Shown here one piece after another: positions 1 to 37,869 of a stretch of 56,267 bases of DNA. Origin of the DNA: Candidatus Yanofskybacteria bacterium (GTDB lineage: Bacteria; Patescibacteriota; Minisyncoccia; 2-02-FULL-40-12; IGHO2-12-FULL-4); assembly GCA_016185525.1 (NCBI GenBank), contig JACPNK010000004.1:17712-73978 (forward strand), written 5' to 3'. The notes under the pieces were generated by a model. The model was not told the origin of the DNA. It saw nothing but the letters and a program-made list of their open reading frames with translations, and searched no databases. Made by a program: the position numbers and the translations under genes. Position 1 is the first letter of the stretch; the number at the start of each line of letters is the position of its first letter.

Positions 1-132
1 TTATGCCCGCGCTTTCGCGATTGACCGTCAGCAAAGCCCCAGCAAGCTGCTTTCGCTTTTGGTGTTCCGTGCGATATCAACGGATTTCACCCCTACACCG
101 CACGTTCCGCTTGCCTCTGACTTGCTCTAGTT

Positions 133-294
133 ACAAGCCGTGCCTCGCTACCGCTCGCCACGAAATTTTTAATTTTACAATTTTCTAATTTTCAATCAAT
201 TCTTAATGTTTTAATTTTTAAACATTTTAAATTCAATGAAAATTTTAAATTGAAAATTCTAAATTGTGCCGAACGAAAGTGAGGCACAGATTGC
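133..294 (-). other. Hairpin intervening sequence in 16S (about E. coli 645-650) with an AT-rich inverted-repeat loop
   Basis: Stem GTGCCTCGCTACCGCTCGCCAC...GTGCCGAACGAAAGTGAGGCAC encloses degenerate AATTTT(C/A)N repeats. It interrupts GAAACGGCAA / AACTAGAG. Confidence 0.85.
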
Positions 295-604
295 CGTTTC
301 CGATGCGGCCTCACAGTTAAGCCATGAGATTTAACATCGGACTAGCAAAACCGGCTACTCGCTCTTTACGCCCAGTAATTCCGGATAACGCTTGGGGCCT
401 TCGTATTACCGCTCCTGCTGGCTAAAGTTACAACATAACTTAATTTTTATGTCTAACGTTGGACTATCTCACCATCCTTAAATAATTAAGGATGCTCAGC
501 GTATTATGGGAACTTAAAAATTCCCATCTCCAGGCACTTTCTAAGATTTCAAAAAAAGTGACTGGAAGTCTCTGAGGGGTTAATTTGTTCAAATTTTTGA
601 AGAC

Positions 605-633
605 TTGATTTTATACAAGTTACTATGTACAAT
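605..633 (+). promoter_or_regulatory. Sigma70-like promoter for the intron-internal antisense ORF
   Basis: TTGATT-17 nt-TACAAT, followed by GGAGG (656-660) and ATG at 665. Confidence 0.6.
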
Positions 634-664
634 TTTGTGGCACATTACCAAAATTGGAGGCCTA

Positions 665-856
665 ATGATTTATTATATCCTCGAAGGTAAATGGTCAAAC
701 AGTATAGCGGAAACATCTGGAACAGAACTCCACATTTTCCAAGCATACTCTGATGAACATGCCACAGAAAAGGCGCAAAGTTATGCCAATGCCCTTCGAT
801 TCAAAATTTCAAAGTTGCTTAAAGTAACTGCGGTAGAAAGAGTAGAAGTAGAATAA
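665..856 (+). CDS. Small hypothetical protein (63 aa) inside the S516 intron, antisense to the rRNA
   Basis: ORF with SD and promoter, enclosed by the inverted repeat TTGTTCAAATTTTT/AAAAATTTGAACAA. No homing-endonuclease motif recognised. Confidence 0.6.
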   Translation: MIYYILEGKWSNSIAETSGTELHIFQAYSDEHATEKAQSYANALRFKISKLLKVTAVERVEVE

Positions 857-1255
857 ATACAAAGAAAATCAAGGCCACAATCTTTCACTGAGCTTGAAGC
901 TCGGTTTTTTTCTCCAAAAATTTGAACAAATCAACTTCCCTGCTGATTTTCCAGTAATTTTGTTAATAAAAACCAACAAAATTTTAATTCAGATTGTCAC
1001 CTCAAAGGGTACTGAATTATTAACTGGGTTTTCCAGCATATAAGCCAAGTTTTTCCTTATTGCCTTACAGCAATAGGTCGCGCCCCCGCCCGAAGTGGCG
1101 GGAGTTTCCACGAAGTTAGGAGCCCCTTATTCGCCAGGTACCGTCACTCCGCCAAAAGGCGGATTCTTCCCTGGCAAAAGCGGTTTACAACCCTAAGGCC
1201 TTCTTCCCGCACGCGGCGTCGCTCGATCAGGCTTTCGCCCATTGTCGAAATTTGT

Positions 1256-1979
1256 CCACAATCACTTGTAGTATAGACTATGTCTTCTTCCCCAAAATAA
1301 TTGAGGAGCTAGCATATTATGGCCTCTAAAAAGAGCGCCATCCAAGTTTAACTAAACTTGAGTCGTTACGGGGTTAATGACCTCATAATTCTTTTTACCG
1401 CCTGCGCCTGAATTTATTTTCCTAATTTCCAGTGCCATGGAAAATAACTTTTCGAAATCTTTATCGGAGAGTGAACTTCTGATGTTCACTAGACCCTGAT
1501 CAAAGATATCAATCATGGCAAGCATTATTTTTGCTTGCCTTTGTTTAAGAATCAAATGCGGTAAAAGTCGCTCTAATACTCTTTTCAGATCTTCACGTTT
1601 CTGAATAACTAGTTCCGAAAGATTATGAGTTGGAGTGTATCTGACTGAACCAACCTTGCCCAAAGATTCTTGAAGCAGAAGCATTAAATTTTTATGCCTA
1701 ACATGCTGTGTAAAATTTATTTTCAATCTCACACGATATGGAAACCGGCGTCTATCTGGCCGCTTTTCTATAACAGCTACAATAGATCCGTCTCCATCAA
1801 GAAAACCGGCAATATATTGATCCGATACATTTTTTCCATTAACTTCCCACGGCGTTGTCTCCATATGGGGTATTATACTATAACCACTTATTTATGGTTA
1901 TAGTTGCTTATCCACAAAGAGGTTTCGCCGTTATAAGCTAGATTTTACTTCAACGTTACCGCTGAAGGAGACAAAATTT
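1256..1979 (-). mobile_element. Group I intron (IA3-like core) in 16S after about E. coli position 328; 3' boundary uncertain
   Basis: P1 GAGAT/GTCTC has a U.G pair. Core motifs: P AACGGCGAAA, Q AACGCCGTGG, R CGTAACGACT, S AAGACATAGTCT. P9 is CTACAA-GTGA-TTGTGG. Confidence 0.88.
1352..1864 (-). CDS. LAGLIDADG homing endonuclease (single motif), intron-encoded
   Basis: YIAGFLDGDGSI motif, FTQH, LLPHLILKQRQA. The C-terminal NPVTT overlaps the intron R element. Confidence 0.95.
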   Translation of the reverse strand: METTPWEVNGKNVSDQYIAGFLDGDGSIVAVIEKRPDRRRFPYRVRLKINFTQHVRHKNLMLLLQESLGKVGSVRYTPTHNLSELVIQKREDLKRVLERLLPHLILKQRQAKIMLAMIDIFDQGLVNIRSSLSDKDFEKLFSMALEIRKINSGAGGKKNYEVINPVTTQV

Positions 1980-2102
1980 ATCTCAGTTCCGTCGTTGGGG
2001 GCCGTGCTCTCACACCCCCTACCCGTCATAGCCTTGGTGAGCCATTACCTCGCCAACAAGCTGATAGGACATAGGCCGCTCACCGAGCAGATTGCTCCTT
2101 TA

Positions 2103-2227
2103 ATCGTGCCTCGCTACCGCGAGCCACTGGGCCAAAGTCTAAAGTCAAAAGTCTAAAGCCAGAAAATTCTTGCCTTAGTCTTTAGTCATTAAGCTTTAGT
2201 CAGTGACTCACAATAGTGAAGCACGAT
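2103..2227 (-). other. Hairpin intervening sequence in the 16S V2 region containing GACTAAA-type heptamer arms
   Basis: Stem ATCGTGCCTCGCTACCGC...GTGAAGCACGAT. Loop AAAGTCT-AAAGTCA-AAAGTCT...GCCTTAGTCTTTAGTCATTA. Confidence 0.85.
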
Positions 2228-2234
2228 GCCATTG

Positions 2235-2266
<32 letters not shown>

Positions 2267-2503
2267 ATCTCGGTGGTACGTACCAATGTGTTACTAACTC
2301 GTTCGCCACTGTGCAGAGTATTGCTACCCTGCACCGTTCGACTTGCATGCATCATCCACGCCGCCAGCGTTCATCCTGAGCTAGGATCAAACTCTCAAAA
2401 TAATTCGTCTAAGCTTAGCCGAAAGCCAAAATTAGACGAATAGTAAGTCTAGTTGACTGTAATAAATAACAACCTATTCAATTCTCAAAATGCTTTCCCT
2501 AAA

Positions 2504-18555: not shown

Positions 18556-18584
18556 TTGAAACCAAAACTCAATTTTGATATGAT
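18556..18584 (+). promoter_or_regulatory. Sigma70 promoter upstream of the structured leader and thrS
   Basis: TTGAAA-17 nt-TATGAT. Confidence 0.7.
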
Positions 18585-18596
18585 TTCTCATATTAA

Positions 18597-18780
18597 GAAG
18601 TGTAGCAGATACAGCCTTTGAGGTCACTGTGAGCTCGCGGTTGGCTCGGTTGGAAGGAGTATAATGTTTCTTTAACTCCTTCCACAACCCGAGCGAACAG
18701 TGAGTGAGTCTGCCGCCTGCCTGCCGGCAGGCAGGCTGGAATCAGCGAAAGTACCGAAAAGGCTGTATCTGCGAAGCTTC
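18597..18780 (+). ncRNA. Long rod-like structured element upstream of thrS (ncRNA/leader or MITE-like)
   Basis: Outer stem GCAGATACAGCCTTT/AAAGGCTGTATCTGC and inner stem TGGAAGGAGT/ACTCCTTCCA. Shares motifs with 28574-28740. Confidence 0.6.
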
Positions 18781-18785
18781 AGATT

Positions 18786-20591
18786 ATGGACGATAAAATA
18801 AACAAAATTCGCCACTCTTTAGCTCATGTCATGGCCGCCGCGGTGCAGGAAATTTATCCTGATGTAAAATTTGGCATTGGCCCTGTCATTGAAAACGGCT
18901 TTTTTTATGATTTTGATTTTCCCTCTCAAGAAGGCAACAAGACACAGTTAGCCGCCGACATTCTGCCGGAAGCAGAAAAAAGGATGAGAAGTATTATCAA
19001 AAATAACCTGCCGATTGAGCAAGTATTTTTAGATATTGATAAAGCTGAAAAAGACGCAAAGATTCAAGGACAGATTTACAAAGCCGAATTGCTTGAAGAA
19101 ATCAGAAAAGGCGAACGCCCAAGTGCAGAATCTGATACCGAAAAAACAAAAGATGGAAAAATTAGTTTTTATAAAATCGGCAACTTCATAGATCTCTGCA
19201 AAGGCCCTCACGTCAAAAACACCAAAGATCTGCCCGCTGACGGCTTCAAACTGACTCGCCTTGCCGGCGCTTATTGGAAAGGAGACTCCTCAAAACCGCA
19301 AATGCAAAGAATTTACGGAGTCGCTTTTAGCTCTAAAAAAGAACTGGAAAGTTATCTGGAACTTCAAAAAGAAGTAGAAAAAAGAGACCACAGAAAGTTG
19401 GGCGCGGAACTGGATTTGTTTGTTTTTTCGGATCTAGTCGGTAGCGGCCTGCCACTCTGGACCCCCAAAGGTACTTTACTAAGAGACGCTCTAGATAATT
19501 TTGTCTGGGAACTTCGCAAAAAACACGGCTATGAAAGAGTTGACATACCCCACATCACCAAAAAAGACCTCTACGAAAAAAGCGGGCATTGGGAAAAATT
19601 CAAAGATGAGCTGTTTAAGATTACTACCAGAGAAGGTCATCTTTTTACAATGAAGCCCATGAACTGCCCGCATCATGCTCAAATTTATGCCCGTAAAACA
19701 TTCAGCTACCGCGAACTGCCCCAACGCTACGCCTCAACCACTAAAGTTTACCGAGACGAACAAACCGGGGAGCTGGCCGGCCTTTCCAGAGTCAGAGCCA
19801 TAACACAAGATGACGCTCACGTTTTCTGCCGCTATCCTCAAGTTAAAGAAGAGATTCTGAAAATTTGGGAGATTGTAAAAGAATTTTATGAAGCCGCCAG
19901 TTTTAAGTTAGAAATTCGGCTGTCTTTGCATGACCCCAAACATATGGAAAAATATTTAGGCAATGAACAAACTTGGGAAAAAGCCGAAAACCAACTTAGA
20001 GAAATTACAAAAGAAAAAAAAGCCAAAGCCGTTGAGTCTGTTGGCGAAGCGGCTTTTTATGGGCCCAAAATTGATTTTATGGCGAAAGATTCAATCGGCC
20101 GAGAGTGGCAAGTCGCCACAATCCAGCTTGACATGAACCTACCGGAGCGTTTTGACTTAACTTGTGTCAACGAAAAAGGAGAAAAAGAAAGAATCGTTAT
20201 GATCCACGCCGCCATAATGGGTTCCATAGAAAGATATCTATCAATTTTAATTGAACATTATGCCGGCGCTTTCCCCGTTTGGCTTGCCCCAGTCCAAGCA
20301 ATTGTTGTACCGATTTCTGACAAATCAACTTCCTACGGACAAAGCGTCTACGAAAGACTGGTTAAAGAGAACCTAAGAGTAGAAATTGACTCTCGAAGCG
20401 AATCTGTCGGCAAAAAAATAAGAGAGGCTGAAATGCAAAAAATTCCATACATTTTGATTGTGGGCGAAAAAGAGCAAAAAGCCAAGTCGGTTGCCGTAAG
20501 ACAAAGAGGGAAAGGAGACACCGGCTTAGTGAAAATAGAAAAATTCGTAGAAAAAATAGCCAAAGAGATAAAAGAAAAAAAGAGCTCCTAA
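18786..20591 (+). CDS. thrS: Threonine--tRNA ligase
   Basis: RHSLAH, DLCKGPH, RDHRKLG, KPMNCPHH, FYGPKID. Confidence 0.99.
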   Translation: MDDKINKIRHSLAHVMAAAVQEIYPDVKFGIGPVIENGFFYDFDFPSQEGNKTQLAADILPEAEKRMRSIIKNNLPIEQVFLDIDKAEKDAKIQGQIYKAELLEEIRKGERPSAESDTEKTKDGKISFYKIGNFIDLCKGPHVKNTKDLPADGFKLTRLAGAYWKGDSSKPQMQRIYGVAFSSKKELESYLELQKEVEKRDHRKLGAELDLFVFSDLVGSGLPLWTPKGTLLRDALDNFVWELRKKHGYERVDIPHITKKDLYEKSGHWEKFKDELFKITTREGHLFTMKPMNCPHHAQIYARKTFSYRELPQRYASTTKVYRDEQTGELAGLSRVRAITQDDAHVFCRYPQVKEEILKIWEIVKEFYEAASFKLEIRLSLHDPKHMEKYLGNEQTWEKAENQLREITKEKKAKAVESVGEAAFYGPKIDFMAKDSIGREWQVATIQLDMNLPERFDLTCVNEKGEKERIVMIHAAIMGSIERYLSILIEHYAGAFPVWLAPVQAIVVPISDKSTSYGQSVYERLVKENLRVEIDSRSESVGKKIREAEMQKIPYILIVGEKEQKAKSVAVRQRGKGDTGLVKIEKFVEKIAKEIKEKKSS

Positions 20592-28016: not shown

Positions 28017-28562
28017 TTATAATTTCTTAATCTGCAAAAAGTCCAATTCAACCGGTGTCTCTCTGCCAAACATCGTCACTAAGACCTTGATTCTGCCACG
28101 CTCTTCATCAACTTCCGAAACTCTGCCGTCAAAGTCCTTGAACGGACCGTCTGTAATTTTGACGTTATCGCCTACCACAATATCAAACTTATACTTGGGC
28201 TCGTCCACGCCCGTTCTTTTTATGAGGGCCTCGGCCTCCTCTTTTGACAAAGGTGTCGGAATAACACCGGCGCCGATAAAACCGGTAACGTTCGGCGTGT
28301 TTCTGACGACATACCACGAATCATCGGTAACAATCATCTCAACCAAAACATAACCCGGAAAAATTTTTTCTTCAACCGTCTCTCTCTTACCGCCTTTTAT
28401 TTTTATCTTTTTCTCCTTGGGCACCAAAACATTAAAAATCTTGTCTTCATACCCTAAAGACTCAATACGCTGTCTCAAGCCGTTGGCAACATTATCCTCA
28501 TAACCTGAATAAGTATGTATAGCATACCAATGTTTTTCCCCGGTTGTAGCTTGCTTTGCCAT
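28017..28562 (-). CDS. nusG: Transcription termination/antitermination factor NusG
   Basis: WYAIHTYSGYE, FPGYVLVEM, VRNTPNVTGF, MFGRETPVELDF. Confidence 0.99.
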   Translation of the reverse strand: MAKQATTGEKHWYAIHTYSGYEDNVANGLRQRIESLGYEDKIFNVLVPKEKKIKIKGGKRETVEEKIFPGYVLVEMIVTDDSWYVVRNTPNVTGFIGAGVIPTPLSKEEAEALIKRTGVDEPKYKFDIVVGDNVKITDGPFKDFDGRVSEVDEERGRIKVLVTMFGRETPVELDFLQIKKL

Positions 28563-28573
28563 TTTTATTAAAC

Positions 28574-28740
28574 TCAGCGTAGTGTCTGTTGCTTTTGGAG
28601 GCTCTGAAAGCTGTGGATTGCATGGTTGCGAGCAGTATAATGTTGCAAAGCAACTGCGAGCAAATCCACAGCTTTCAAAGAGTGCAGCTTTCCCGCTGGG
28701 GAAAGCAAACGTCCGGAAAAAGTAACAGACACGAAGCTGA
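28574..28740 (+). ncRNA. Long rod-like structured element between secE and nusG
   Basis: Stems GTGTCTGTTGCTTTT/AAAAGTAACAGACAC and TGAAAGCTGTGGATT/AATCCACAGCTTTCA, with apical AGTATAATGTT. Confidence 0.6.
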
Positions 28741-28743
28741 CCA

Positions 28744-28926
28744 TTATCTTAAAAATATTTTGTTCAACAGAAAAGTAAAAACAGCATCTAGGCCGCCTAA
28801 AAATGCCGCCACAAACAAACTTAAACCAATCACAATACTTGTGTATTTTATAGTCTGCTGTTTTGTCGGCCAGTCTACCCGGCCCAATTCACCTCTAACG
28901 TCTTTAAGAAAACCAGGAACATTCAT
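28744..28926 (-). CDS. secE: Preprotein translocase subunit SecE
   Basis: ELGRVDWPT followed by one TM segment; directly upstream of nusG. Confidence 0.95.
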   Translation of the reverse strand: MNVPGFLKDVRGELGRVDWPTKQQTIKYTSIVIGLSLFVAAFLGGLDAVFTFLLNKIFLR

Positions 28927-32337: not shown

Positions 32338-32377
32338 ATCGGAGTCTTGTAAATGAGTTTAGCAATATTTGCTAAAC

Positions 32378-32680
32378 TCATAAATACCTTCTAGTAAAAA
32401 ATAGGCTAAAAATTAAAATTGTAGTCAATAGCCCCCACCAAAAAGACGACTTAAAAGCTTCGTTAAAAGGTTGTCTTTTAGACCAAAGACAGCGGATAGA
32501 CAGAAATACAAAGCTAAAAATTCCCCACAAAGCTATAAAAAAAGAAACAAAGAAAATGGCTTTTTCCAACTCACCTGTCTCAAAAGGGTCTACCTTGAAA
32601 ATTATTATGCCAAGCGCCGCTACGGCAAAAATTGTAGCAACAACAACACCGCTAAACAAGGTTCTGTCTCCAAAGATCAT
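32378..32680 (-). CDS. Small three-TM membrane protein
   Basis: Three hydrophobic segments; extended -10 box 6 nt before the ATG. Confidence 0.75.
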   Translation of the reverse strand: MIFGDRTLFSGVVVATIFAVAALGIIIFKVDPFETGELEKAIFFVSFFIALWGIFSFVFLSIRCLWSKRQPFNEAFKSSFWWGLLTTILIFSLFFTRRYL

Positions 32681-37080: not shown

Positions 37081-37869
37081 CTTACTACTTCAGCTTTCGC
37101 TGCTCCTTTCGGATTTGTAGTCTGGACTATCCCTTTACCAGTCCTTATTTTATTAGAACAAGGATTGTGGTATCTGCCAACTAGTCTCTACACCTGCCTA
37201 CGCCAAAGGCTGCGGCAGGCAAGCCTTCTCTCTTGCGAAGTAAGCTTGCTTGCAATCCAAAGCTTTAGCGAAGGATTGGTTCGGGATTACCACTATTATC
37301 CAAACAAGACAGTAAAGGCTTCCCCGAATTTGACAGATTATCTTCTAAGCTATTCCTAACTTAGACGCCCTAAGTTGTTTAAAATACGAATTCTTGGTAT
37401 ACTACCAACACATGAGAAAGTCTTTAACTAGAAGTGCTTCTATCTACAAGTACAAAAATCCTTCGGGCGACCCTTTTGATTATAAACCAGAAATTAGTAG
37501 GGAATTGGAAATTGTAGGCTTGCTACTCTGGGTCACAGAAGGAGATCGAACACAGTTATCTCTTGCAAACGGAAACCCCACTATAATTCTACGTTATCTG
37601 GATTTTCTCCGTAAGATTTGTGGTCTAAAAGAAGAAAAAATCAAAGCTGTAGTACACTGCCACGATACATTGCCCTACAAAAAATGCCTGGGATATTGGT
37701 CTGAAATTACCAACATACCAAAAACCCGATTTACAAAACCTTACATTAAACCGGACAAAGGAGGACATAGAAAATATCCCTATGGCATCCTTAGAATAGC
37801 GGCAATGAATATCAAGCTAATCCGTATTTTTAACGAACGATTGAGAGAGTTGGGTCTCTCTAAAGATTG
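37081..37869 (-). mobile_element. Group I intron (IC3-like) between U33 and C34 of tRNA-fMet
   Basis: Exon ends in U and intron ends in G. Core motifs: P AAATTCGGGGAA, Q AATCCCGAACC, R GTAGAGACTAG, S AAGGGATAGTCC. Confidence 0.93.

What the first reader, a model, noticed from the sequence alone, without database searches (positions are those of the whole stretch)
18597..18780. Rod-shaped ~185-nt element forming the whole thrS leader, sharing terminal and apical motifs with a second element
It starts just after a sigma70 promoter and ends 5 nt before the thrS ATG; no T-box consensus is visible. Its ends AGTGTAG...CGAAGCT and its apical AGTATAATGTT recur in 28574-28740, although the stem sequences differ completely. 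Conserved structure with changed sequence suggests a functional family. Size and shape recall 6S RNA, and the GUA/GAA opposition recalls a loop-E motif. A -10 hexamer shown in the loop without a correctly spaced -35 could be a sigma-factor decoy.
Basis: partly seen in the sequence, partly recalled or inferred. Interest (0 to 1): 0.7.

Follow-up and report, generated by a model that had tools for sequence, protein, structure and literature searches.

The report
Dispersed palindromic repeat in thrS leader
The structured stretch in front of thrS is not a thrS-specific regulator but one recent copy of a roughly 170-base palindromic repeat found about thirty times in this tiny candidate-phyla-radiation genome, a kind of repeat not yet described for that group.

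Summary
Window 18597-18780 folds very strongly (z -10), fills the space between a sigma-70-type promoter and the thrS ATG, and shares its end and apical motifs with 28574-28740. No Rfam family matches: no T-box, no 6S.

It is not a private thrS leader. A covariance model built from 22 copies finds 32 copies in this 812-kb genome (0.7% of the DNA). It also finds copies in 40 of 105 genomes of the same order, with up to 25 or more per genome.

All copies share a three-way-junction fold:
- a long, hypervariable closing stem;
- a conserved arm with a 7-nt bulge and an apical AG-TATAAT loop;
- a short hairpin with a CGCUGGR loop.

Covariation is heavy: 46 of 47 pairs show double changes across 26 genomes.

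Several results mark it as dispersed, mobile-type DNA:
- Sister species lack it at thrS.
- E1 is 99% identical to a copy whose own site is ancestral.
- One copy sits in frame inside a UvrD-type helicase gene.
- Other palindromes are nested in its loops.
- Orientation is unrelated to neighbouring genes' needs but biased with respect to GC skew.

Its closest analogues are RPE, ERIC, Correia and REP/REPIN elements. The mobilising enzyme and any RNA-level role remain unknown.

The parts
18556..18584 (+). thrS promoter-like site TTGAAA-N17-TATGAT. In sister species the same promoter sits 12-13 nt from the thrS ATG.
   Evidence: 10 of 12 matches to consensus; conserved in G001, G002 and G003
18597..18780 (+). 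Element copy E1 (class I, with a nested GC palindrome). Layout: outer helix 18597-18601/18776-18780; GTA/GAA internal loop 18602-18604/18773-18775; 15-bp closing stem 18605-18619/18758-18772; long arm with TATAAT loop; short hairpin.
   Evidence: 176.5 bits, E 4.5e-44; 99% identical to G000:C8:13567-13748
18660..18665 (+). Apical TATAAT hexamer of E1, preceded by AG. Its reverse complement reads TATACT.
   Evidence: TATAAT is present in 27 of 32 copies in this genome
18716..18735 (.). Nested 20-bp GC palindrome CCTGCCTGCCGGCAGGCAGG in the loop of E1's short hairpin. It belongs to a separate small repeat family.
   Evidence: 12 places in the genome; 7 of them lie inside copies of the element, 6 in the short-hairpin loop and 1, in C7:26093-26335, at a position that was not worked out; found alone in many genomes of the order
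18786..20591 (+). thrS coding sequence (601 aa)
   Evidence: relatives found with it
28573..28742 (+). Element copy E2 (class I). It lies between secE and nusG, antisense to both. TATAAT is at 28636-28641.
   Evidence: 142.4 bits, E 3.3e-35; 94% identical copy at G000:C1:4348-4510
28017..28562 (-). nusG
   Evidence: Pfam NusG, KOW
28744..28926 (-). secE
   Evidence: Pfam SecE
32353..32381 (+). Solo 13-bp hairpin ATGAGTTTAGCAA-TAT-TTGCTAAACTCAT. It is orthologous to the outer closing stem of a full element in G003. It is either a target hairpin or a deletion remnant.

Best explanation
Window 18597-18780 is one copy of a lineage-specific, dispersed, structure-defined palindromic repeat. The family behaves like the small non-autonomous repeats of other bacteria (RPE, ERIC, Correia, REP/REPIN).

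Shown here:
- The family has about 32 copies in this genome and is present through much of the order.
- Copies keep a three-way-junction fold by compensatory change.
- Copies are gained, lost and overwritten between sister species.
- One copy is tolerated in frame inside a helicase gene.
- Other palindromes nest inside the loops of copies.
- E1 is a recent copy (99% identical) of the element at G000:C8:13567-13748. That site is shared with a sister species, so E1 landed between the thrS promoter and the ATG after the species split.
- As a result, a leader of about 6 nt became one of about 190 nt.

Inferred, not shown:
- The element propagates at the DNA level through a folded single strand, the TATAAT-bearing one.
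- Hairpin loops are preferred landing places.
- The conserved unpaired motifs (RYAG...GAAGY at the foot, the UGCWUGG bulge, the AG-TATAAT loop and the CGCUGGR loop) are recognition or cleavage sites for the enzyme that moves it.

A candidate enzyme, held with low confidence (about 0.3), is one of the four RAYT-like HUH tyrosine transposases in the genome. The reason is that class I copies such as E1 and E2 start with the REP signature GTAG followed by a palindrome.

For thrS the element is most likely a passenger. If transcribed from the thrS promoter, it would give a highly structured leader. Its 23-bp closing stem could be a substrate for a double-strand RNase, as with Correia elements.
For: Copy number and spread:
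- Local BLAST finds 29 places in the genome.
- Model R1 finds 32 distinct places at E below 1e-6, 28 of them at E 2.8e-13 or better.
- 40 of 105 genomes of the order have matches: f1 8/8, f4 19/26, f2 4/8, f3 8/62.
- Only 4 of about 145 genomes of other orders in the class have matches.

Structure:
- 25 copies fold at -71 to -123 kcal/mol.
- 33 of 47 pairs are compensatory among 22 copies of one genome.
- Across 26 genomes, 93.8% of cells are paired against 60.2% in shuffles and 32-41% when partners are slid. 46 of 47 pairs have double changes, and 0 of 500 shuffles reach this.

Mobility and turnover:
- The thrS leader is empty in G001 and G002, and holds a different subfamily member in G003.
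- The secE-nusG spacer holds different palindromic elements in G001, G003 and G004.
- Three filled-versus-short sites were found for this family. The short site keeps the outer stem as a solo hairpin in one, a piece of the stem foot in the other two.
- E1 is 99% identical to the C8 copy. The C8 site is orthologous in G001, where the copy is 84% identical and lacks the GC palindrome.

Insertion in a gene:
- Copy C7:9233-9399 adds 57 in-frame residues to the UvrD_C domain of a UvrD / PD-(D/E)XK helicase.
- G002 keeps the same closing stem there but with a replaced interior.
- G001 has another small palindrome at that spot.
- Six remoter genomes have linkers of only 12-29 residues.

Not an independent gene or leader:
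- Copies fill intergenic gaps.
- Flanking genes are both opposite in 12 of 25 copies, both the same in 6, and mixed in 6; one copy is inside a gene.
- A promoter-like site lies upstream of only 5 of 28 copies.

Strand-specific fold and polarity:
- There are 179 G.U pairs on the TATAAT strand against 128 on the other, with 30 elements against 11 (p 0.004).
- The TATAAT strand is the more stable in 49 of 54 copies.
- The TATAAT strand lies on the negative-GC-skew strand in 21 of 28 copies (p 0.013).

Candidate enzyme and REP-like signature:
- The genome has four Y1_Tnp genes, each flanked by its own REP hairpins.
- RYAG...GAAGY ends occur in 15 of 28 copies, and exact GTAG in 9 of 28.
- REPs are defined by a 5' GTAG or GTGG followed by a variable palindrome (PMC4690160, passages read).
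Against: - The termini are the most variable part of the element, the opposite of a classical MITE. No target-site duplication could be defined.
- No transposase gene lies next to any copy. In the 126 loci fetched up to that point, only the three loci fetched for the Y1_Tnp (RAYT-like) genes themselves matched a RAYT query.
- The four RAYT-like genes are flanked by other hairpins, not by this element.
- Y1_Tnp presence does not track the element across the order: 23 of 40 genomes with it against 30 of 65 without (Fisher p 0.32). Two nearly complete genomes have 15-16 copies and no Y1_Tnp hit.
- The 'empty' sites keep pieces of the closing stem, so they may be deletions rather than pre-insertion sites.
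- Conservation of loops, bulges and tandem G.A mismatches across a whole order, optional extra arms with their own conserved motif, and compensatory change at orthologous sites (6 and 5 double changes against 1 broken pair each in the two pairs of 81% and 91% identity; the 84% pair gave 1 double change against 3 broken, the 99% pair none) would suit a functional RNA at least as well.
- The orientation bias could reflect transcription rather than replication. Copies run against the local gene direction in 22 of 28 cases, and in this genome the two directions are confounded.
Confidence: 0.75

Rival explanations
1. The family is a multicopy functional RNA. In this reading each copy is transcribed and acts at the RNA level. 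It could be a protein-binding decoy, or an RNA module in cis that is cut by a double-strand RNase and so insulates, stabilises or uncouples neighbouring messages.
For: - Covariation is very strong.
- RNA-like features are conserved: tandem G.A mismatches, a 3x3 RYA/GAA loop, and a 7-nt bulge.
- An optional extra arm carries its own conserved motif.
- G.U pairs are in excess on one strand.
- Orthologous copies change by compensated pairs.
- RNase III processing and effects on mRNA stability are documented for Correia and ERIC (PMC10969869, passages read).
Against: - Only 5 of 28 copies have a promoter-like site upstream, and copies fill their intergenic gaps, leaving no room for one.
- 22 of 28 copies run against the local gene direction. 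Read-through transcripts would therefore mostly carry the less stable complementary strand.
- One well-preserved copy lies inside a coding sequence.
- The thrS and other sites are dispensable in sister species.
- No Rfam family matches, 6S included.
- G.T wobble also stabilises folded single-stranded DNA, so the strand asymmetry is not specific to RNA.
Confidence: 0.12
2. The element is a portable promoter. The apical AG-TATAAT gives a -10 hexamer on both strands (TATAAT on one, TATACT on the other). In duplex or extruded-cruciform form it would start transcription outward, as Correia elements do. This role could coexist with mobility.
For: - TATAAT is present in 27 of 32 copies here and in 20 of 26 copies from other genomes.
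- The few variants seen (TATAGT, TAAAAT, TACAAT) keep the A at position 2 and the T at position 6.
- Some copies sit 5-23 nt in front of start codons that have no other visible signal: thrS, uvrB, alaS and an RNase J-like gene.
- Sigma-70-like promoters are known in Correia, including one serving a uvrB gene, and in other MITEs (PMC10969869).
Against: - No conserved -35 lies at 16-18 nt on either strand. The best match on the top strand is at most 3 of 6 in all 42 copies scored. On the bottom strand it reaches 4 of 6 or more in only 9 of 42.
- There is no TG extension.
- At thrS the host promoter is intact just upstream, so no new promoter is needed.
- A promoter alone does not explain why 47 base pairs covary.
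- No RNA data exist.
Confidence: 0.15
3. The element is a thrS-specific leader. Candidates are a T-box, a tRNA-mimic operator for ThrRS autoregulation, or another riboswitch.
For: - It occupies the whole leader.
- One other copy lies in front of alaS.
Against: - No T-box match was found.
- Identical or similar copies stand next to unrelated genes and antisense within operons.
- The thrS leader lacks the element in G001 and G002.
Confidence: 0.02

Closest known systems
Rickettsia palindromic elements (RPE)
   Same: - About 100-150 bp palindromic repeats in a reduced genome, in tens of copies, with no linked transposase.
- Found between genes and also in frame inside protein-coding genes (PMC10969869, passages read).
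- Here one copy adds 57 in-frame residues to a helicase.
   Different: - Here only 1 of 32 copies is inside a gene, whereas RPEs are frequently so.
- The host phylum is different.
- This family has a three-way-junction fold with an invariant loop hexamer.
- No sequence relation to RPEs was tested, because no RPE sequence was at hand.
ERIC and Correia elements (bacterial MITE-like repeats)
   Same: - Imperfect palindromes of 127-200 bp in transcribed intergenic DNA, in either orientation.
- Internal insertions occur at set places.
- They carry promoter-like hexamers, and their stems are cut by RNases (PMC10969869).
- That ERIC keeps its RNA fold by compensated changes is recalled and comes from no call.
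   Different: - Correia and classical MITEs have conserved terminal inverted repeats and a TA duplication. Here the termini are the most variable part, and no duplication was found.
- The conserved parts here are internal loops and bulges.
REP / REPIN elements with RAYT transposases
   Same: - Extragenic palindromes defined by a 5' GTAG or GTGG followed by a palindrome in which only the ability to pair is conserved (PMC4690160).
- They persist vertically in a lineage (abstracts listed).
- Here exact GTAG stands at the foot of 9 of 28 copies, including E1 and E2.
- Four RAYT-like genes are present, each with its own flanking hairpins.
   Different: - REPs are 20-40 nt GC-rich hairpins, and REPINs are two of them. 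This element is 160-190 nt and branched.
- The RAYT-like genes here are flanked by other hairpins.
- RAYT presence does not track the element.
6S RNA
   Same: Similar length (about 185 nt), and mostly double-stranded with unpaired purine-rich loops.
   Different: - No match to Rfam 6S models.
- Branched rather than a rod with a central bubble.
- 32 copies rather than one or two.
- Most copies have no promoter.
- Lies within a coding sequence in one case.

Membership tests
6S RNA | Match to the 6S covariance models; long rod with a central open-promoter-like bubble | tested here: not met
   No 6S hit at gathering score or at E up to 10. The fold is a three-way junction.
6S RNA | One or two independently transcribed genes per genome that bind RNA polymerase holoenzyme | tested here: not met
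   There are 32 copies. A promoter-like site lies upstream of 5 of 28. Binding cannot be tested with these tools.
T-box leader | Stem I with specifier loop, plus the conserved T-box sequence in an antiterminator or anti-sequestrator | tested here: not met
   No T-box hit. The same element stands beside unrelated genes.
REP / REPIN | 5' GTAG or GTGG tetranucleotide followed directly by an imperfect palindrome | tested here: inconclusive
   Exact GTAG occurs in 9 of 28 copies and RYAG in 15 of 28, in register at the stem foot. The other 13 copies lack it.
REP / REPIN | Short (20-40 nt) GC-rich hairpin, or two such in inverted order | tested here: not met
   The element is 160-243 nt, branched and 40-57% GC.
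REP / REPIN | A cognate single-copy RAYT gene flanked by members of the family | tested here: not met
   Four RAYT-like genes are present, but they are flanked by other hairpins. No RAYT lies near any fetched copy. There is no co-occurrence across 105 genomes.
Classical MITE | Conserved terminal inverted repeats related to those of an IS, and a target-site duplication | tested here: not met
   The termini are hypervariable. No duplication is visible at three filled-versus-short comparisons or at thrS. No parent IS was looked for beyond Y1_Tnp.
Classical MITE | Multicopy, non-coding, under about 300 bp, with presence/absence between close relatives | tested here: met
RPE-like palindromic repeats | Palindromic repeat able to sit in frame in coding genes as well as between genes, with no linked transposase | tested here: met
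   helicase; 31 of 32 intergenic.
RPE-like palindromic repeats | Sequence relation to the Rickettsia families | not tested

The most novel reading that the evidence does not exclude
These elements may be a new class of structure-addressed mobile DNA peculiar to Patescibacteria. In this reading:
- A folded single strand, not a terminal sequence, is both the moving unit and the target.
- Modules land in the loops of earlier hairpins and so build nested palindromes.
- The invariant single-stranded TATAAT loop is a working signal. It could be the nick site of an HUH enzyme. It could instead be a -10 element presented ready-melted to sigma factor, making each copy a supercoiling-sensitive hairpin promoter or a polymerase trap in a genome with very few regulators.
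Probability: 0.12. Interest if true: 0.85.

Novelty: new variant of a known kind. Interest (0 to 1): 0.5.

Why it matters
Candidate-phyla-radiation genomes are among the smallest and most tightly packed known. This one still spends 0.7% of its DNA on about 32 copies of a single elaborate repeat, and the family is kept across an order. It also carries several smaller palindrome families and four RAYT-like genes.

I found no description of such repeats in Patescibacteria:
- Three full-text searches named the group (as 'candidate phyla radiation'). No listed paper was about such repeats; none held the word 'Patescibacteria', one did hold 'candidate phyla radiation' (on Borg elements of archaea).
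- A search on structured RNAs in Parcubacteria listed no paper on such repeats.
- A 2024 review of prokaryotic MITEs does not mention the group.

Practical consequences:
- The repeat breaks assemblies. Contigs of four runs end at both copies in the window.
- It can be mistaken for riboswitches or small RNAs, as happened here.
- It inserts into leaders and even into genes, so annotation pipelines for these genomes should mask it.

Biologically, it offers a system in which structure, not sequence, seems to be what is inherited and perhaps what is recognised. That bears on how REP-like elements move and persist.

Tried and rejected
- RNA evidence: no RNA holder was listed for the region, only four DNA runs from one study.
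- Laying those runs gave contigs that stop at both elements. There was no usable joint across an element, and so no excision or empty-site variant.
- Earlier findings of this scan were not open.
- Known RNA families: none matched.
- RAYT adjacency: none was found in the fetched loci.
- RAYT co-occurrence: not significant.
- Canonical -35 hexamer: not conserved on either strand.
- External promoter as part of the element: 5 of 28 copies against a 6.4% background (p 0.03). This is too few to be a feature of the family.
- Target-site duplication: the candidates seen by eye at thrS (ATT) and at the C8 copy (TAA) do not agree and were dropped.
- Resemblances considered from the sequence alone and dropped because they hold for only some copies or failed Rfam. 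None was tested further: hammerhead, hairpin and twister ribozyme cores; the archaeal bulge-helix-bulge motif; DnaA box; dif site; sigma-54 promoter; integron attC; CsrA-binding GGA hairpin.
- Literature searches found no description of these repeats in this group. Supplements were not consulted.

Full report
**What is at the coordinates**

A sigma-70-type site, TTGAAA-N17-TATGAT, lies at 18556-18584. The thrS ATG is at 18786. Between them lies a 184-nt stretch, 18597-18780.

As RNA, this stretch folds at -102.1 kcal/mol, with z -10.1 and 0 of 200 shuffles as good. The second stretch, 28574-28740, folds at -85.3 kcal/mol, z -9.2. Its complementary strand folds less well, at -74.9 kcal/mol.

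Both stretches have the same plan:
- a short outer helix;
- a 3x3 internal loop, GUA opposite GAA;
- a perfect closing stem of about 15 bp;
- a junction;
- a long arm ending in AG-UAUAAU;
- a short GC-rich hairpin.

Rfam has nothing for either stretch at gathering thresholds or at E up to 10. There is no T-box and no 6S. The fold, however, is branched rather than rod-like.

**It is a repeat family**

The apical 11-mer occurs four times in the 812-kb genome. The two extra sites are near-identical copies of the two window elements.

BLAST with either element finds 29 places in the genome and many in related genomes. I aligned 22 copies. RNAalifold gave 47 pairs, 33 of them with compensatory changes within this one genome.

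The covariance model R1 gave these results:
- 32 distinct places in the genome at E below 1e-6, 28 of them at E 2.8e-13 or better;
- only the two known copies within the window;
- matches in 40 of 105 genomes of the order: f1 8/8, f4 19/26, f2 4/8, f3 8/62.
- one or two matches each in 4 of about 145 genomes of other orders in the class.

On 26 copies from 26 other genomes, 93.8% of cells pair. The figure is 60.2% in shuffles and 32-41% with slid partners. 46 of 47 pairs show double changes, and 0 of 500 shuffles reach this. That alignment was fitted to the model, which favours the structure somewhat.

The copies total 5,777 nt, or 0.71% of the genome.

The nearest ThrS-encoding records carry titles such as Candidatus Yanofskybacteria and Paceibacterota. 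The host is therefore a Patescibacteria (CPR) bacterium from groundwater.

**Anatomy**

- **Closing stem.** It is 20-25 bp, nearly perfect, and the most variable part of the element.
  - In 15 of 28 strong copies its foot reads RYAG...GAAGY. In 9 of those the motif is exactly GTAG. E1 and E2 are of this class.
  - The other copies have plain long stems.
- **Junction.** A tandem GA/GA mismatch is followed by a 2-bp helix that covaries (GG:CC, AG:CU, GA:UC).
- **Long arm.** It has a further GA/GA mismatch and a conserved 7-nt bulge, UGCWUGG.
- **Apical loop.** It begins AG-UAUAAU.
  - TATAAT is present in 27 of 32 copies here.
  - It is present in 20 of 26 copies from other genomes.
- **Junction strand.** GAGUG follows the long arm.
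- **Short hairpin.** Its loop reads CGCUGGR.
- **Closing strand.** It reads GAAMGUACYRAA.

Some copies carry an extra arm that grows out of the bulge. This arm has its own conserved motif. Another subfamily has a different apex.

Seven of the twelve copies of a separate 20-bp GC palindrome lie inside elements. In six of these, E1 among them, it sits in the loop of the short hairpin; for the copy in C7:26093-26335 the place was not worked out.

**Where the copies lie**

Copies fill intergenic gaps almost completely, with typically 0-20 nt to each neighbour. Of 25 copies:
- 12 lie between two genes that both run opposite to the element;
- 6 lie between two genes that run the same way;
- 6 are mixed;
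- 1 is inside a gene.

E2 was corrected by hand in this count, because the ORF list shows a spurious frame over secE.

Only 5 of 28 copies have even a loose promoter-like site upstream.

Some sense-oriented copies end 5-23 nt before start codons. The genes are thrS, uvrB, alaS and an RNase J-like gene (gene names are read from the N-terminal translations by eye, apart from thrS).

**Turnover between species**

- **thrS.** In G001 and G002 the same thrS promoter stands 12-13 nt from the ATG, with no element. G003 has a different subfamily member there.
- **secE-nusG spacer.** It holds other palindromic elements in G001, G003 and G004.
- **A site filled in G003.** In G000 it corresponds to a bare 13-bp hairpin at window 32353-32381. 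That hairpin is exactly the outer part of the G003 closing stem, and a 4-nt direct repeat (GCAA) flanks the missing part.
- **Two sites filled in G000.** They are short in G002, where bits of the stem foot remain.

These pairs fit either of two histories: insertion of a core into the loop of an older hairpin, or deletion that leaves a solo stem. I could not tell which.

E1 is 99% identical over 182 nt to the copy at C8:13567-13748. That site is shared with G001, where the copy is 84% identical and lacks the GC palindrome. E1 is therefore a recent copy that arrived at thrS after the species split.

At orthologous sites, changes are often compensated, though not in every pair:
- in the pair of 81% identity: 6 double changes, 5 wobble changes, 1 broken pair;
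- in the pair of 91% identity: 5 double changes, 0 wobble changes, 1 broken pair;
- in the pair of 84% identity: 1 double change, 2 wobble changes, 3 broken pairs;
- in the pair of 99% identity: no double change, 2 wobble changes, no broken pair;
- over all eight pairs: 45 double, 25 wobble and 56 broken. The low-identity pairs are poorly aligned and may be replacements rather than descendants.

**A copy inside a gene**

The copy at C7:9233-9399 scores 144.6 bits. It lies antisense and in frame in a 1099-residue UvrD / PD-(D/E)XK helicase gene, where it adds 57 residues within the UvrD_C domain, just before the conserved DDERRLFYVALTR motif.

At the same spot in relatives:
- G002 has the same closing stem with a replaced interior.
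- G001 has another palindrome of about 87 nt.
- G003's contigs break there.
- Six remoter genomes have linkers of 12-29 residues.

This behaviour recalls the Rickettsia palindromic elements (PMC10969869, passages read).

**Strand and polarity**

Folding each of 54 copies on both strands gave these results:
- 179 G.U pairs on the TATAAT strand against 128 on the other;
- more on that strand in 30 elements, fewer in 11, equal in 13 (p 0.004);
- the TATAAT strand is the more stable in 49 of 54.

One strand is therefore the folded one, whether as RNA or as single-stranded DNA.

That strand lies on the negative-GC-skew strand in 21 of 28 strong copies (p 0.013). It runs against the local gene direction in 22 of 28 (p 0.004). 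In this genome gene direction follows skew, so the two explanations cannot be separated. Several skew values on contig C6 are also near zero.

**Candidate machinery**

The genome has four Y1_Tnp (HUH tyrosine transposase) genes of 212-263 residues. Their best NCBIfam match is the REP-associated tyrosine transposase model, but below its cut-off: 48.5 and 33.5 bits against 80, with two of the four tested.

Each gene is flanked by its own small hairpins or repeats, which recur 2-7 times in the genome. None of the four is flanked by the element.

In the 126 loci fetched up to that point, only the three loci fetched for the Y1_Tnp (RAYT-like) genes themselves matched a RAYT query.

Across the order, Y1_Tnp is found in 53 of 105 genomes. 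That is 23 of 40 genomes with the element and 30 of 65 without (Fisher p 0.32; tallied by hand).

The link to RAYTs therefore rests on three points only:
- the GTAG-plus-palindrome signature (PMC4690160);
- the single-strand polarity;
- the habit of palindromes landing in loops.

I rate this link at about 0.3.

**Promoter idea**

AG-TATAAT gives TATAAT on one strand and TATACT on the other. The few variants keep the A at position 2 and the T at position 6.

No -35 hexamer is conserved at 16-18 nt:
- On the top strand the best match is at most 3 of 6 in all 42 copies scored.
- On the bottom strand it reaches 4 of 6 or more in 9 of 42.

Promoter activity is known for Correia and other MITEs. It remains possible here but is unsupported.

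**Verdict**

The finding is a true and strongly structured element, but it is not a thrS riboregulator or a 6S-like RNA. It is a copy of a dispersed, structure-conserving palindromic repeat family of a CPR lineage.

The family is closest in behaviour to RPE, ERIC, Correia and REP/REPIN elements. It differs from them in four ways:
- a branched fold;
- hypervariable ends;
- invariant internal loops;
- nesting of other palindromes in its loops.

What moves it, and whether the host uses it, is open. The lack of any RNA data is the main gap.

Noticed in passing
G000:C7:7284-10583 (outside the window); element at C7:9233-9399: A UvrD / PD-(D/E)XK helicase gene carries a full copy of the repeat in frame, adding 57 residues. 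Sister species have other palindromes or short linkers at the same spot.
   Followed up: yes
G000:C1:74799-75437, C7:3152-3943, C1:100015-100713, C2:149345-149989: Four RAYT-like Y1 (HUH) transposase genes in an 812-kb genome. Each is flanked by its own small hairpins or direct repeats, which recur elsewhere 2-7 times.
   Followed up: partly
window 18716-18735, plus 11 other places in G000: A 20-bp GC palindrome, CCTGCCTGCCGGCAGGCAGG, forms a separate repeat family. It is often nested in the short-hairpin loop of the large element, and it occurs alone in many genomes of the order.
   Followed up: partly
G000:C2:106409-106582, C7:34709-34885; G003 secE-nusG spacer (L121): A sister subfamily of about 140-175 nt keeps the junction and the short hairpin. 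It has a different apex, which holds a TTGTCAA...TTGACAA palindrome. It is also multicopy in G001 and G003, and the G000:C2:106409 site is empty in G001.
   Followed up: partly
L115 and L116 (thrS upstream in G001 and G002): Without the element, the thrS promoter's -10 lies only 12-13 nt from the ATG and there is no Shine-Dalgarno sequence. This suggests a nearly leaderless thrS message in these bacteria.
   Followed up: no
window 1-2394, minus strand: The 16S rRNA gene matches Rfam in two pieces (1-533 and 1075-2394), with about 540 nt between them. This fits an insertion in the gene, as is often reported for this group (recalled).
   Followed up: no
window 37100-37391, minus strand: A group I intron match just above Rfam's gathering score (51 bits against 50). 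Its host gene was not worked out.
   Followed up: no
window 18631-18750 and 28616-28686: Assembled contigs of all four public DNA runs stop at both copies of the repeat, and word depth is several-fold higher there. The repeat fragments assemblies of these genomes.
   Followed up: partly
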